The translations under genes and the position numbers were made by a program. The notes under the pieces were generated by a model. It was not told where the DNA came from, did not search any database, and was given only the letters and a program-made list of their open reading frames with translations. 64,000 nt of DNA from Octopus sinensis. Taxonomy: Eukaryota. Where the stretch lies: NCBI RefSeq assembly GCF_006345805.1, contig NC_043003.1:37014001-37078000 (forward strand), read 5' to 3'. Position 1 is the first letter of the stretch. Every line of letters starts with the position of its first letter. This document shows positions 17,544-57,022 of the stretch, piece by piece.

Positions 17544-17570
17544 ACAAGTTTGTTAATATTATACTATAAG

Positions 17571-18380
17571 AAGGCGGCGGGCTGGCAGAAACGTTAGCAC
17601 ACCGGGCGAAATGCTTAGCGGTATTTCGTCTGCCGTTACGTTCTGAGTTCAAATTCCGCCGAGGTCGACTTTACCTTTCATCCTTTCTGGGTCGATAAAT
17701 TAAGTACCAGTTATGCACTGTGGTCGATGTAATGGACTTAATACCTATGTCTGTCCTTGTTTGACCCCTCTATGTTTAGCCCCTTGTGGGTAATAAAGAA
17801 ACAGGTATTTCGTCTGTCTGAACATTCTGAGTTCAAATTCTGCCGAGGTTGACTTTGCCTTTCATCCTTGTGGGGTTGAATAAATAAGTACCAGTTACGC
17901 ACTGGGGTCGATATAATCGACTTAATCCGTTTGTCTGTCATTGTTTGTCCTCTCTGTGTTTAGCCTCTTGTGGGTAGTAAAGAAATAGAAATAGGTATTT
18001 CGTCAGTCTTTACGTTCTGAGTTAGAATTCCACCGAAGTCAACTTTGCTTTTCATCCTTTCGGGGTCTATAAAATGAGTACCAGTTGACTACTGAAGTTG
18101 ATCTTATCCACTTACCCACTAATCCGAAATTTCTGGCCTTGTACCAAAATTTGAAACTAATATTATAATAATATTATATTATAAAGCACACCGGACAAAA
18201 TGCTTAGCGGCATTTAGTCCGTCTTTGATTTCTGAGTTCAAATTCCGACAATGTTGTATTTTGCCTTTCGTCCTTTAGGGGTCGCTGAAAAAAGTGACTG
18301 TTGAGAATTGGGGGGGTTGATGTAATCGATTATCCCTTTAGCCCCAGAATCCTAGGCCTTGTGTCAATAGCAGGATGGAT
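17571..18380 (+). mobile_element. Multimeric SINE family A: one head plus three internal units, followed by a further degenerate copy
   Basis: The unit beginning gtatttcgtc recurs at ~17621, ~17805 and ~17995. Another copy lies at ~18185-18380. Confidence 0.9.
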
Positions 18381-28798: not shown

Positions 28799-28837
28799 AT
28801 TTAAGCCCAATACTGAGTGTTGTGGGTTTCTTGGTAC

Positions 28838-29283
28838 CTATTTCTTTACTACCCTCAAGGGGCCAAACACAGAGAGGGCAAACAAGGACAGACAGACAGA
28901 TTAAGTCGATTATATCGACCCCAGTGCGTAACTGGTACTTATTTAATCGACCCCGAACGGATGAAAGGCAAAGTCGACTCAGAACGTAACAGCAGACGAA
29001 ATACCTATTTCTTTATTACCCACAAGGGGCTAAACACAGAGGGGACAAACAAGGACAGACATAGGTATTAAGTCGATTACATCGACCCCAGTGCGTATCT
29101 GGCACTTAATTTATCGACCCCGAAAGGATGAAAGGCAAAGTCGACCTCGGCGGAATTTGAACTCAGAACGTAGCGGCAGACGAAATACCGCAAAGCATTT
29201 CGCCCGGCGTGCTAACGTTTCTGCCAGCTCGCAGACGAAATACCGTTAAGCATTTCGCTCGGCGTGCTAACGTTTCTGCCATC
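28838..29283 (-). mobile_element. Multimeric SINE family A with a duplicated head
   Basis: Two internal units, plus two head segments ending cgtgctaacgtttctgcca at ~29226 and ~29281. Confidence 0.9.
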
Positions 29284-31965: not shown

Positions 31966-32603
31966 ATTGGTTTCAAATTTGGGCACAAAGCCAGCAGTTT
32001 TTTCTTTTTTTCGTGGAGTAAGTCGATGATATCGACGCCAGTCTTCTACTGGTACTTATTTTATTGACCTCAGAAGGATGAATGACAAAGTCGACCATAT
32101 CGGAATTTGAAGTCAGAGCATAAAGACGAACGAAATACCGCCAAGCATTTTGCCCGATGTGCTAACAATCGTGTCAGCTCGCCGCCTTATTTCTAATAAG
32201 AATATTGATTTCAAATTCTGGTACAAGGCCAGTAAGTTCGGAGTAAGGGATAAGTGGATTACATCGACCTAGTACTCAGCTGCTACTTATTTTATCGACC
32301 TCAGAAAAATGAAAGGCAATGTCAACCTTAGTGGGATTTGAACCCAGAATGTAAAGGCAGACGAAATGCCTATTTCTTTACTACCCACAAGGGGCTAGAC
32401 ACAGAGGAGACAAACAAGGACAGACAAACGGATTAAGTCGATTATATCGACTCCAGTGCGTAACTGGTACTTAATTTATCGACCCCGAAAGGATGAAAGG
32501 CAAAGTCGACCTCGGCGGAATTTGAACTCAGAACGTTACGGCAGACGAAATACGGCTACGCATTTCGCCCGGCGTGCTAACGTTTCTGCCAGCTCGCCGC
32601 CTT
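31966..32603 (-). mobile_element. Tandem and multimeric SINE family A copies
   Basis: Heads (gctcgccgccttat) end at ~32188 and ~32603. The flank ttc(t)cataagaatattg is repeated at ~31953, ~32190 and, degenerately, ~32606. Confidence 0.9.
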
Positions 32604-33391
32604 ATTTCACATAATGAATGTTGCGATTTATTCGAGTGCGGCTTCAGCTATCCTTAGAAAATAAGGATTTATTGGGGGTGAGGAGTGAAAGACAGGAACA
32701 AAACCAGTCGGATGTCAAAACTTAGAATATTCAAAACAACACATTCTTAAAATTCGCTGCACTAGAAAAAGGCAAAAAGAAAACAAAAAAAACAAACAAA
32801 TATATTCTATAGAAGACATAGCTGAGACTGTGTGACATTCATGGCCTTCTTAATGGGAAGAATGCGAGCAATTGACGTAAATTCACTTTCTACTTGGATT
32901 AGAAACCGTTTTCTGAACTTAGTTGTAAATCTACCACCCTCAACACATACTGCAAATAATATTTAAATCTGTTCAACGCATTATGGACTGAAATATTCCA
33001 CTCAGGTTATCAAAGGTATTACTCGTTTAGCATTACAGCTAAATTATGGAAATTCAATAACATTAATAGTATATGTATGTTTTGCATATTTACTTTCCTT
33101 TCATACACACTGATCAATTTGCACGTGCGGTAATAAATGTAAATGTGTCTATATGATGAAATCGCTTTATACCTATCGAAATCTTTCATTTCATCTTTAC
33201 TAGGCCCAGCGGTAAAATTACTAAATTGATGTTTCCAATTGGTCAATCAGCCATTTATGTGTCGACGTTCTAATGTTATAAACAGTTAGCTGAAATGACA
33301 GTATATTAAAAATGTGATTCTATTAGGAAATGTGTATTTGTGTTAGTCTGAGTGTGTAGACTATTTTGTCTATTTTCATAAAGCTTCCCGT

Positions 33392-35402: not shown

Positions 35403-35789
35403 CAGACAGAATACATCTTTAGATTCTTCCATAGGTTCAAATGCAAGCAAAATCAACACACATAACACTTGCCTATATGCATCCACGGTTGTTACAATAT
35501 GCGTACATTTTTCCATTTATTTCTCTTCTCTATCAACATGAGTATCTTAGAAGCTATATAGCTTTAATTCTTTTAATTTAACTTTTTAATTCAACTTTTA
35601 ACCTTTAATTTTTATTTTAGTTAATTATTCATCCATTTAATTGTTGTCTTATACTATATATGCCCCCTTAAGCTAGGCAGCTATTTTTAGCTATCCCTAC
35701 TGACCGCTGAACTAAGTATTCTCTCTGACCACACCTAACCTAGAATTAATCGACATAAATACCTTCCTCCTCCACTTTACCAAATCCTT

Positions 35790-36182
35790 ATACCTATTTC
35801 TTTATTACCCACAAGAGGCTAAACATAGAGGGGACAAACAAGGGCAGACATAGGTATTAAGTCGATTACATCGACCCCAGTGCGTAACTGGTACTTAATT
35901 TATCGACTCCGAAAGGATGAAAGGCAAAGTCGACCTCGGCGGAATTTGAACTCAGAACGTAATGACAGACGAAATACCTATTTCTTTACTACCCACAAGG
36001 GGCTAAACACAGAGAGGACGAAAGACAAACGGGTAAAGTCGTTTATATCGACTAACTGGTATTTAATTATCGATCCCGAAAGGATAAAAGGCAAAGTCGA
36101 CGTCGGCGGAATTTGAACTCAGACGAAATACCGCTAAGCATTTCGCCCGGCGTTCTAACATTTCTATCAGTTCACCGCCTTA
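35790..36182 (-). mobile_element. Dimeric SINE family A with a target-site duplication
   Basis: Two internal units. It is flanked by accaaatccttatacc at ~35779 and ~36198. Confidence 0.9.
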
Positions 36183-37894: not shown

Positions 37895-38222
37895 AAGACG
37901 AGCTGGCAGAAACTTTAGCACGCCGGGCGAAATGCGTAGCCGTATTTCGTCTGCCGCTACGTTCTGAGTTCAAATTCCGCCGAGGTCGACTTTGCCTTTC
38001 ATCCTTTCGGGGTCTGTTAAACAAGTACCAGTTATGCACTGGGGTCGATATAATCGACTTAGTCCGTTCGTCTGTCCTTGTTTGTCCTCTCTGTGTTTAG
38101 CCCCTTGTGAGTAGTAAAGAAATAAGTATTTCGTCTGTCTTTAAGTTCTGAGTTCAAATACCGCCGATGTCGACTTTCTCTTTCACCCGTTCGGGAGCTG
38201 TTAATTTAAGTACCAGTTGCAT
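37895..38222 (+). mobile_element. Dimeric SINE family A
   Basis: Head gagctggcagaaactttagcacgccgggcg; the second unit starts at ~38126. Confidence 0.9.
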
Positions 38223-45387: not shown

Positions 45388-45461
<74 letters not shown>

Positions 45462-45557
45462 TTAGAGACAAAACCACTATTATGCAAATCAAACAAAGAA
45501 AGACTTAAGCCAATACATAAAATAATTTATATAAATTTAGAATTTAACAATATAAAT

Positions 45558-45618
45558 AACCACTACGATCGTTTCATGTCTTATTTCAGCACATCTTTGA
45601 GACATTCTTCAGGTGGTT
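45558..45618 (-). ncRNA. Type I hammerhead ribozyme, antisense-arm copy
   Basis: Reverse complement of 45910-45970. Confidence 0.85.
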
Positions 45619-45909
45619 TCAAAACCAGACTCAATATTCAATAAACCATTAAATATTTAATATTTATTAATAAAATATTTATTAATACAATGAAAAACCA
45701 TGTATAATCTAACTATAATTAAAAACATAACCTAATTAACTAAAAAAATTATTATAATAAGTACTCCATATCACTTAGTATATTTATAATACTAGAACAA
45801 AAACCAATAAATAAGGAGCTATTTAGATGGTTTTTCATTGTATTAATAAATATTCTATTAATAAATATTAAATATTTAATGGTTTATTGAATATTGAGTC
45901 TGGTTTTGA

Positions 45910-45970
45910 AACCACCTGAAGAATGTCTCAAAGATGTGCTGAAATAAGACATGAAACGATCGTAGTGGTT
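45910..45970 (+). ncRNA. Type I hammerhead ribozyme
   Basis: aaccac CTGAAGA atgtct-[18 nt]-agacat GAAAC gatc GTA gtggtt. Stem I is 6 bp, stem II is 6 bp, the stem III loop is palindromic and the cleavage triplet is GUA. Confidence 0.88.
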
Positions 45971-46163
45971 ATTTATAATTGTTAAATTTCTAAATTTATA
46001 TAAATTATTTTATGTATTGGCTTAAGTCTTTCTTTGTTTGATTTGCATAATAGTGGTTTTGTCTCTAATTTAATATAATATAATATTTTACTATAAAATT
46101 GGATTCAATCCTAAATCTGATTTTTCCCTGTAAATTTGGATTTATTCCCTAATATTTATTATT

Positions 46164-47037: not shown

Positions 47038-47868
47038 AGCAGATAAAACGATAGAAAGAGAGAGATACATACATATTCACATACATAGATACATACATAC
47101 AGATCTGATTGCTAGATAGATACGTACATACATATTTATAGACATAGGTATAATAAATGCGAATGTTAATGTGTCAGTGTGTCACACTTTTTCAGCTTTA
47201 CTTCTAGAGACCGTAGCCCAACATATCATACCATTTTGGAATCAGGTTGACTCCTTGAGTAAATTGATAATATTCCCGGCCGAATCCGGACCCGCAATCC
47301 TGAAATTTTCATTATTGCGATTGTTTTCGTCGATTTTTACGTGATTTTTTGCGACGAATTTTTATTCCGAAAAAACTTTTTCCTCTCCCGAAATGCAATT
47401 CGTAAAAGTTTGCCATTTATCCGGATGTAATATAATGTAAACCTCACCCATGTGCTTCGTTTGATGTTGATCAGTAGCTGATCGGCTTAAGCGGGGCAGG
47501 GTCGTTGTTTATTTATAATACATTCAGGCCTGCTGATGATTACGTAAGTATGAAATCACTGTGATACAGGTCTATATTTTAAATGTCTTACTTTGAAAAA
47601 TTGCATTCGGTGGGATTAGTAAATTTTTGGTATAAATGACTAAATTGTCCCTCTTAGCGTTTGGCATGTAAGTATAATGCCTTCTGGCATGTATGTATAA
47701 TGCCCTCTATATATAAATTAATATGTTCAATAAGAAATAATTATTTCGAAATTTTTTCTCTTATGAGGTTTTTACGCTATCTACCTGACAATTTCTTGTT
47801 AAGTTTTCCCTTATTAAGTAGTTGTCCTTAATTGCTATATATATATAATATATATATATATATAAATA

Positions 47869-48240
47869 TATTAGAGACAAAACCACTATTTTGCAAAACA
47901 AACAAGGAAAGACTTAATCAATACATAAAATTTTAATAAATAGTCAAAAAAAACCGCCACTACAATTGTTCTCTTGTCTTGATCGACATCTTCAGGTGGA
48001 CTTCGAACTGACTTATTGGAAGTCCACCTGAAGATTGTCGATCAAGACAAGAAACAATTGTAGTGGTGGGTTTTTTTGACTATTTATTAAAATTTTATGT
48101 ATTGATTAAGTCTTTCCTTGTTTGTTTTGCAAAATAGTGGTTTTGTCTCTAATAATATTTTATAATATTTTACTATAAATTGGATTTAATCCTAAATCTG
48201 ATTTTTTCCCTGTAAATTTGGATTTTCCCTAATATTTATT
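47869..48240 (+). mobile_element. (TA)n-embedded fold-back element: 136-bp arms (47869-48004 and 48019-48154) plus tail
   Basis: Inverted arms. The tail aatcctaaatctgattttt...ccctgtaaatttggattt is shared with 46077-46162. Confidence 0.92.
48024..48066 (+). ncRNA. Minimal type I hammerhead ribozyme
   Basis: ccac CTGAAGA ttgtc gatcaa gacaa GAAAC aatt GTA gtgg. A slightly damaged antisense copy lies at 47957-47999. Confidence 0.88.
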
Positions 48241-48262
48241 ATATATATATATATATATATAT

Positions 48263-48593
48263 ATACAAGTAATGAGAGTCTACATGTGGTCACTCTAACG
48301 CTAGATATAGATCCACGAAGGGAGTCCACCACTAAAGAATTGTTCTCAAGAATTAGTTCAACGCGCCAAGAATGCTTACATTCTTGGTGCGTTGAACTAA
48401 TTCTTGAGAACAATTCTTTAGTGGTGATTCCATTCGTGGATCTATATCTAGCGTTAGAGTGACCACATGTGGACTCTCTCTCATTACTTGTATTAATAAT
48501 TTTTACTGTATCCCAGTTTTTTATACGCTAGGCCACTTGGTGTTTTAAATTGATGTTAGTAATTAATATTCAATTTTTTTCACCCTTATGTGA

Positions 48594-48600
<7 letters not shown>
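48263..48600. mobile_element. (TA)n-embedded fold-back element: ~112-bp arms, 4-nt loop, plus tail
   Basis: 48263-48374 is the reverse complement of 48379-48493. A unique tail runs to ~48600. Confidence 0.88.
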
Positions 48601-48660
<60 letters not shown>

Positions 48661-56945: not shown

Positions 56946-57022
56946 TCCCCTGATGAAGGAGGTATTACCTGGATGCACCCTAGTGCTTTAAACATAATAC
57001 ACCCCTGAAATGGCCATAGGGA
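56946..57022 (+). ncRNA. Type I hammerhead ribozyme from a second, unrelated family
   Basis: tccc CTGATGA agg-aggtatta...taatac-acccct GAAA t ggcc a TA ggga. Stem I is tccc/ggga, the stem III loop GGCC is palindromic and the triplet is AUA. It directly follows (TA)n. Confidence 0.82.

What the first reader, a model, noticed from the sequence alone, without database searches (positions are those of the whole stretch)
47869..48240. Sister element shows sequence change with preserved pairing in the ribozyme stems
Seen: same family as 45453-46162. Stem II is ttgtc/gacaa with a 6-nt loop instead of atgtct/agacat with an 18-nt loop. The stem III loop is AATT instead of GATC, both palindromic. CTGAAGA, GAAAC, GTA and ccac/gtgg are invariant. 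Inference: selection has acted on the RNA structure, including the dimerisation palindrome, during amplification of the subfamilies.
Basis: partly seen in the sequence, partly recalled or inferred. Interest (0 to 1): 0.85.

Follow-up and report, generated by a model that had tools for sequence, protein, structure and literature searches.

The report
Hammerhead ribozyme in a Penelope retrotransposon

Summary
The sequences are as described. 47869-48240 is a 5'-truncated, spliced copy, an inverted partial copy and a tail of a Penelope-like element (PLE) in a (TA)n tract; longer copies carry a GT-AG intron and an RT + GIY-YIG reading frame. The hammerhead motif has 3667 exact matches, plus 1550 with another base at position 7. 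The stem II inference fails: TGTC/GACA is identical in both window elements, and the one swapped pair (A-U to U-A) is unpaired in 18 of 32 aligned rows. Selection shows as conservation instead: no recurrent core substitution in an unconditioned sample, free change at position 7 and loop II. The palindrome claim holds loosely: loops are GATT 1771, AATT 1303, GATC 301, ATTT 242, other 50; 44% are strict palindromes, 92% self-pair if G-U is allowed. Covariation is not significant (28 of 500 shuffles), and CpG decay can give GATC to AATT. PLE hammerheads with palindromic stem III are published. New member of a known kind; cleavage untested.

The parts
47828..47868 (.). (TA)n target tract, left side
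   Evidence: TA tracts flank most of the 30 closest copies
47869..48004 (-). Inverted partial copy (left arm), without the tail
   Evidence: self-alignment; whole element folds as one hairpin of -222 kcal/mol
47957..47999 (-). Damaged hammerhead of the left arm (one base lost in stem II, one added in GAAAC)
   Evidence: may be decay or assembly error
48005..48014 (+). Last 10 bases of the element's first exon; spliced junction at 48014/48015
   Evidence: longer copies have GTAAGT after this exon and TTTTAG before the next, 1.3-1.8 kb apart
48024..48066 (+). Minimal type I hammerhead motif: stem I 48024-48027/48063-48066, core 48028-48034 and 48051-48053, predicted cut after 48062
   Evidence: cleavage not tested; no Rfam hammerhead hit
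48035..48050 (+). Stem II: conserved TGTC/GACA (48036-48039/48046-48049), 6-nt loop, and a first pair 48035/48050 that is not maintained across subfamilies
48054..48061 (+). Self-complementary octamer (stem III plus AATT loop), predicted dimer helix, -6.4 kcal/mol
   Evidence: loop counts
48067..48164 (+). Rest of the pseudo-LTR shared by both arms; holds the 17-mer anchor with 10,433 genomic matches
48165..48240 (+). Tail present on one arm only; in L018 and L123 it runs on into the start of the reading frame
45453..46162 (.). Sister element of a GATC subfamily, two intact hammerhead motifs on opposite arms

Best explanation
This is a truncated, spliced, folded-back copy of a Penelope-like retrotransposon whose terminal repeat carries a minimal hammerhead motif that likely self-cleaves weakly and only as a dimer, and whose core and inner stems were likely kept by purifying selection in the source elements. 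Shown: copy number, the 5' intron ending 9 bases before stem I, spliced and unspliced copies, an RT then GIY-YIG frame between motif copies, and the pattern of conserved and free positions. Inferred: a transcript running from an upstream repeat through the frame into the downstream repeat carries two motifs, which would pair through the octamer and cut after the GUA; selection would act on master elements, not on dead copies such as this one, whose two arms would pair and bury the motif. Selection tolerates G-U and even U-U in the dimer helix and any base at the first stem II position, so it is loose.
For: RT and GIY-YIG pieces upstream of intron + motif in L130 and L128, RT between two motifs in L123, RT after the motif in L018; feature look-alikes with RVT_1 and GIY-YIG. 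Intron GTAAGT...TTTTAG; in the window's stem II class 28 unspliced, 34 spliced, 18 other of 80 arms. Sample anchored outside the motif: 52 of 99 arms span it, 40 of 52 are exact in core and stem I, no substitution recurs at two loci (one C lost from a C run in two), while position 7 is A 31, T 6, C 3. Stem II, not fixed by my patterns: three pairs identical in 32 of 32 rows, the fourth in 27 of 32; 3 changes against 8.4 expected, P 0.03. Outer palindrome pair kept in 32 of 32 rows; GATT amplified (1771) whereas the equally reachable AATC (0.3 kcal/mol duplex) is within the 50 left-over matches. Loop state is a template property: 22 of 23 two-armed loci concordant, 28 of 28 unspliced arms linked to an intron marker. 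Literature: PMC4209133.
Against: No cleavage data. The G10.1-C11.1 pair that PMC4209133 calls highly conserved is absent. Monomer folding in 7 native contexts gives P(stem I) at most 0.16 and P(stem II) at most 0.46. No spike of 5' junctions at the cut: of 31 TA-joined loci 4 start exactly there and 4 more are compatible, 6 start 4 bases upstream (counted by eye), and the next window downstream has 94 reverse-strand junctions against 13. Flank and tail are conserved too (tail 21 changes in 79 columns), so part of the conservation may serve splicing or RT binding. Covariation is not significant. Pfam gave no RT or GIY-YIG hit on the four linked frames.
Confidence: 0.72

Rival explanations
1. 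One reading: compensatory base-pair changes in stem II and a strict dimer palindrome were selected during subfamily amplification.
For: Pair 57-60 has 14 both-side changes and is never broken; 5 of 6 parsimony changes in loop III can keep pairing, P 0.005-0.11 depending on the mutation model; the long-stem subfamilies show one real swap, CTGC/GCAG against CTGT/ACAG, and a wobble form.
Against: First stem II pair unpaired in 18 of 32 rows; covariation reached by 28 of 500 shuffles; GATC to AATT is a single edge of the tree and is the CpG-decay product with probability 0.3-0.6 if CpG is hypermutable; strict palindromes are 1604 of 3667; ATTT amplified to 242.
Confidence: 0.15
2. The motif is a catalytically dead relic; its sequence is held by another constraint (second exon next to a 3' splice site, protein binding) and loop changes are CpG decay and drift.
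For: No canonical G10.1-C11.1; poor predicted folding; no junction spike at the cut; the most numerous classes have the weakest duplexes apart from ATTT; about half of arms extend through the motif, so the downstream motif was uncut in those templates.
Against: The free positions are exactly position 7 and loop II, as a hammerhead allows (established knowledge); AATT to GATT arose at least twice and creates a CpG; AATC never amplified.
Confidence: 0.1
3. The element is a non-coding retrozyme, SINE or fold-back DNA transposon (MITE) with terminal inverted repeats.
For: 372-bp palindrome with thousands of short copies and no frame in the window copy.
Against: Arms break at variable points, the tail is on one side, copies are spliced or unspliced, and longer copies join to an RT + GIY-YIG frame. 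Some long copies lack the frame (L031, L036), so deletion derivatives exist.
Confidence: 0.03

Closest known systems
Minimal type I hammerheads of metazoan Penelope-like elements (Cervera and de la Pena 2014, PMC4209133; Lunse et al. 2017, seen only as cited in PMC6765202 and PMC7761336)
   Same: [quoted passage not shown]
   Different: No G10.1-C11.1 pair next to the core; a free 1x1 position precedes U-A, G-C; helix II 4-5 bp in the dominant subfamilies; wobble palindrome is the commonest state.
Drosophila virilis Penelope
   Same: Spliceosomal intron in the 5' repeat ending at the start of helix I, spliced and unspliced genomic copies, palindromic helix III (PMC4209133, PMC8557442 passages).
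   Different: Intron 1.3-1.8 kb against 75 bp; ends 9 bases before stem I; (TA)n target; Cys-rich linker before the endonuclease.
Neptune-type C-terminal-endonuclease PLEs
   Same: RT then Cys-rich linker then GIY-YIG; microsatellite targeting; inverted 5'-truncated copy and one-sided tail (PMC8557442 passages).
   Different: Clade not tested by phylogeny; the label rests on domain order and recalled motifs; tail about 75 bp against 30-40 bp.
Non-LTR retrozymes of animals (PMC7761336 passages)
   Same: Type I hammerhead, tandem copies, weak helix III.
   Different: This family links to its own coding frame and an intron; no tandem 170-400-nt monomers shown as the unit; no Rfam hammerhead hit.

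Membership tests
Penelope-like element (C-terminal EN+) | Single frame with RT followed by GIY-YIG | tested here: met
   L130, L128: RT then EN on the motif's strand; look-alikes 0.93-0.96 with RVT_1 17-48% and GIY-YIG 11-32% of members; frames are broken, Pfam silent on them, weak RVT_1 and GIY-YIG hits on a related family
Penelope-like element (C-terminal EN+) | Pseudo-LTRs: partial tandem, inverted 5'-truncated copy, one-sided tail | tested here: met
   (L123, L124 direct pairs)
Penelope-like element (C-terminal EN+) | Spliceosomal intron retained in some copies | tested here: met
Neptune clade | Placement in RT phylogeny; CX2-5CxxC linker | not tested
   Cys-rich linker seen but spacing is CxCx5Cx5C; no reference proteins on hand
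Minimal type I hammerhead of PLEs | Core CUGANGA, GAAA, UH in type I order | tested here: met
Minimal type I hammerhead of PLEs | Helices I and II | tested here: met
   stem I pairs 29-32 of 32, stem II inner pairs 27-32 of 32; by conservation, not covariation
Minimal type I hammerhead of PLEs | Short palindromic helix III | tested here: met
   3375 of 3667 self-pair with G-U allowed, 1604 strictly
Minimal type I hammerhead of PLEs | G10.1-C11.1 pair closing stem II (highly conserved, PMC4209133) | tested here: not met
   0 of 32 rows have G-C there
Minimal type I hammerhead of PLEs | Self-cleavage, as a dimer | not testable with these tools
   junction survey gave no spike at the cut
Rfam hammerhead families | Covariance-model match | tested here: not met
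   none among 11 matches at E up to 10 in 47400-48300

The most novel reading that the evidence does not exclude
A hammerhead variant that has dropped the canonical G10.1-C11.1 pair, leaving a hypervariable base before G12, and whose dimer helix was weakened step by step (GATC -10.0, AATT -6.4, GATT -5.8, ATTT -2.9 kcal/mol) along the lineage that amplified most: cleavage is being tuned down, not maximised, because uncut RNA is the template for new copies. Some 30 subfamilies with copy numbers would form a natural allelic series for the open question of what PLE hammerheads do.
Probability: 0.15. Interest if true: 0.62.

Novelty: new member of a known kind. Interest (0 to 1): 0.3.

Why it matters
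Hammerheads in Penelope-like elements are known, but their role in the cell is stated to be unknown (PMC8557442 and PMC7761336 passages). This family offers over 5,000 motif copies in about 30 subfamilies, which separates held positions (core, TGTC/GACA, outer palindrome pair) from free ones (position 7, the base before G12, loop II). That makes dimer cleavage and its tuning easy to test. It is not a new kind of system, and the specific covariation flagged is weak.

Tried and rejected
Rfam: whole window, 150 of 254 matches listed, mostly hairpin miRNA models on microsatellites, no hammerhead among them; region search, none. The RT/GIY-YIG frame in L039 was first taken for the partner, but it lies beyond a TA tract and none of its 12 closest loci holds this motif's 5' half within 1.5 kb: a different PLE family, used only as a query. 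Expression: no RNA holder listed; four runs only guessed to be RNA were laid as contigs and cannot show strand, ends or cleavage; not used as evidence. Cleavage footprint at 5' junctions: no spike; the control window is more AT-rich and covers more subfamilies, so the comparison is rough. The single AGCT-loop match (L219) has no family sequence downstream: left out. Post-insertion CpG decay as the source of the AATT class: rejected by arm concordance and marker linkage. One row (second arm of L228, one-base deletion) entered by mistake and was dropped and from the stem II count. Pfam on the captured host exon gave nothing. No earlier findings matched. Lunse et al. 2017 is not held in the library.

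Full report
Observation. 48024-48066 is ccac CTGAAGA ttgtc gatcaa gacaa GAAAC aatt GTA gtgg, and the sister at 45912-45968 has atgtct/agacat, an 18-base loop and GATC. The element is a near-perfect palindrome (47869-48164) with a one-sided tail (48165-48240) in a (TA)n tract. The left arm's motif is damaged by two one-base indels, which may be decay or assembly error. The genome is 2.72 Gb in 13,516 contigs; its repeat landscape suggests an octopus (recalled, from no call).

What the element is. The 3' part has 449 first-look candidates, the 40 scored 95-100% identical; a 17-base anchor outside the motif has 10,433 matches. Copies come in two forms. Some have TTTTAG before the exon that carries the motif and, 1.3-1.8 kb upstream, GTAAGT; others, the window copy among them, have the two exons joined. 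In the window's stem II class 28 arms are unspliced, 34 spliced and 18 other of 80. Longer copies reach a broken frame with RT then GIY-YIG on the same strand: L130 and L128 upstream of intron and motif, L123 between two motifs, L018 after one. Pfam found nothing relevant on four such frames; feature look-alikes carry RVT_1 and GIY-YIG in part of their members, and the frames are 50% and 36% identical to another family's frames with weak Pfam hits. Partial tandems, an inverted truncated copy, a one-sided tail, a retained 5' intron and TA targeting are the described anatomy of Penelope-like elements (PMC8557442, passages). So this is a dead, truncated, spliced PLE copy.

Stem II. TGTC/GACA is the same in both window elements; only the first pair and the loop differ. 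I aligned 30 subfamily representatives (22 classes seen at two or more fetched loci, 8 with one fetched locus that recur in the search listings) and the two window copies. The first pair is A-U in 10, U-A in 4 and unpaired in 18 of 32 rows, with A-A, A-C, A-G and U-U all amplified. On a tree built from sequence outside the motif, its 3' base changes 10 times against a flank mean of 71 changes in 68 columns. It is not a selected pair. The inner pairs are held by conservation: three are identical in 32 of 32 rows and one in 27 of 32; 3 changes against 8.4 expected, P 0.03. The covariation score for the whole structure is reached by 28 of 500 shuffles. One real swap lies further out, in long-stem subfamilies: CTGC/GCAG against CTGT/ACAG, with a wobble form.

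Core. My motif patterns fix the core, so they cannot test it. The anchor sample can: of 99 arms from the first 100 anchor places, 52 span the motif, 7 hold its 3' half and 40 stop short. Of the 52, 40 are exact in core and stem I; no substitution among the other 12 recurs at two loci (one C lost from a C run in two). Position 7 is A 31, T 6, C 3, and 1550 genomic matches have a base other than A there. Change at the one free core position and not elsewhere supports selection on a hammerhead. The two-copy comparison alone does not: P about 0.10.

Palindrome. Of 3667 matches the loop is GATT 1771, AATT 1303, GATC 301, ATTT 242, other 50. Strict palindromes are 44%; with G-U pairs 92%. In the first 100 matches with another base at position 7: GATC 44, GATT 33, AATT 22, one unrelated AGCT (counted by eye). 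Duplex energies are GATC -10.0, AATT -6.4, GATT -5.8, ATTT -2.9, AATC +0.3 kcal/mol. The states belong to templates: 22 of 23 two-armed loci agree and 28 of 28 unspliced arms link loop to an intron marker. On the tree GATC/AATT is one edge (bootstrap 63), GATT arises at least twice among AATT subfamilies and ATTT once. Five of six parsimony changes can keep pairing, P 0.005-0.11. Against: GATC to AATT is two CpG transitions and is expected with probability 0.3-0.6 if CpG is hypermutable, and ATTT amplified. For: AATC, as easy to reach, stayed within 50 matches, and AATT to GATT creates a CpG. The evidence is suggestive of loose selection for self-pairing. The direction of change is not fixed; the tree is unrooted.

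How it likely works. A PLE transcript starts in an upstream repeat, may splice the intron, passes the motif, the frame and the downstream repeat. Two motifs would pair through the octamer and cut after GUA; additive estimates favour the dimer for this subfamily (-18.8 against -13.0 kcal/mol). This is inferred from PMC4209133 (parts 1-2 of 4 read) and PMC6765202 (passages), which report weak dimer-dependent cleavage. Against efficient cleavage: no G10.1-C11.1 pair, low monomer stem probabilities in 7 native contexts, and no spike of 5' junctions at the cut: 4 of 31 TA-joined loci start exactly there and 4 more are compatible (by eye), with 94 against 13 reverse-strand junctions in the next window. 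A read-through transcript of this copy would form a -222 kcal/mol hairpin that buries the motif, so selection concerns master elements only.

Known and new. Palindromic minimal hammerheads in PLE repeats, opposite-strand pairs, family-level compensatory changes and an intron ending at helix I are all in PMC4209133. Searches for Penelope, hammerhead or ribozyme and octopus listed no paper on this family; supplements were not opened, and Lunse et al. 2017 was seen only as cited. What is particular here is the free position before G12, the wobble palindrome as the majority state and the size of the allelic series. Verdict: observation confirmed, interpretation partly supported, new member of a known kind, interest 0.3.

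Noticed in passing
L019:1225-1500 (G000:C8:46917439-46917714); host exons L241, L242 on C24: Two spliced exons of a host gene are joined, exactly at the second exon's GTAAGT donor, to this element's acceptor exon, and the chimera is inserted with an inverted copy on another contig. The frame ends in NHQST, like an acyltransferase such as AGPAT5 (recalled; Pfam silent). A host transcript trapped by the element's 3' splice site and retrotransposed.
   Followed up: yes
L042:535-804: An open, coding-like stretch directly before the acceptor exon in both arms; possibly a second trapped host exon.
   Followed up: no
window 47499-47572 +: Another hammerhead-like motif 300 bases upstream: 6-bp stem I, CTGATGA, short stem II that also opens with U-U, interrupted palindrome with a one-base centre, AUA cut. 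No other copy in 242 loci.
   Followed up: partly
window 56946-57020 +: Hammerhead-like motif after a TA tract with palindromic octamer ATGGCCAT and a long loop II; probably another PLE family.
   Followed up: no
window 48263-48610: A second palindrome-plus-tail element of different sequence abutting the same TA tract, no hammerhead core found; related sequence precedes the family copy in L027.
   Followed up: partly
window 48050 and its counterpart in all subfamilies: The base before G12 changes 10 times on the subfamily tree, ten times the flank mean; unexplained, may reflect template switching between subfamilies.
   Followed up: partly
L039:3547-5644: A different, very abundant PLE family (17,653 first-look candidates for its endonuclease piece).
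   Followed up: partly
L039:1613, L125: Intron-retaining copies whose donor reads GAAAGT instead of GTAAGT: a branch that may no longer splice yet still spread.
   Followed up: no
L131, L132, L141, L114: Short direct tandems of the motif or repeat, 330-510 bases apart, which would put two motifs in one short transcript; not checked whether they are element tandems or local duplications.
   Followed up: no
window 17568-18003, 28835-29232, 32015-32606, 35779-36022, 37899-38185: Another interspersed repeat family with at least five copies in the window, 86-94% alike.
   Followed up: no
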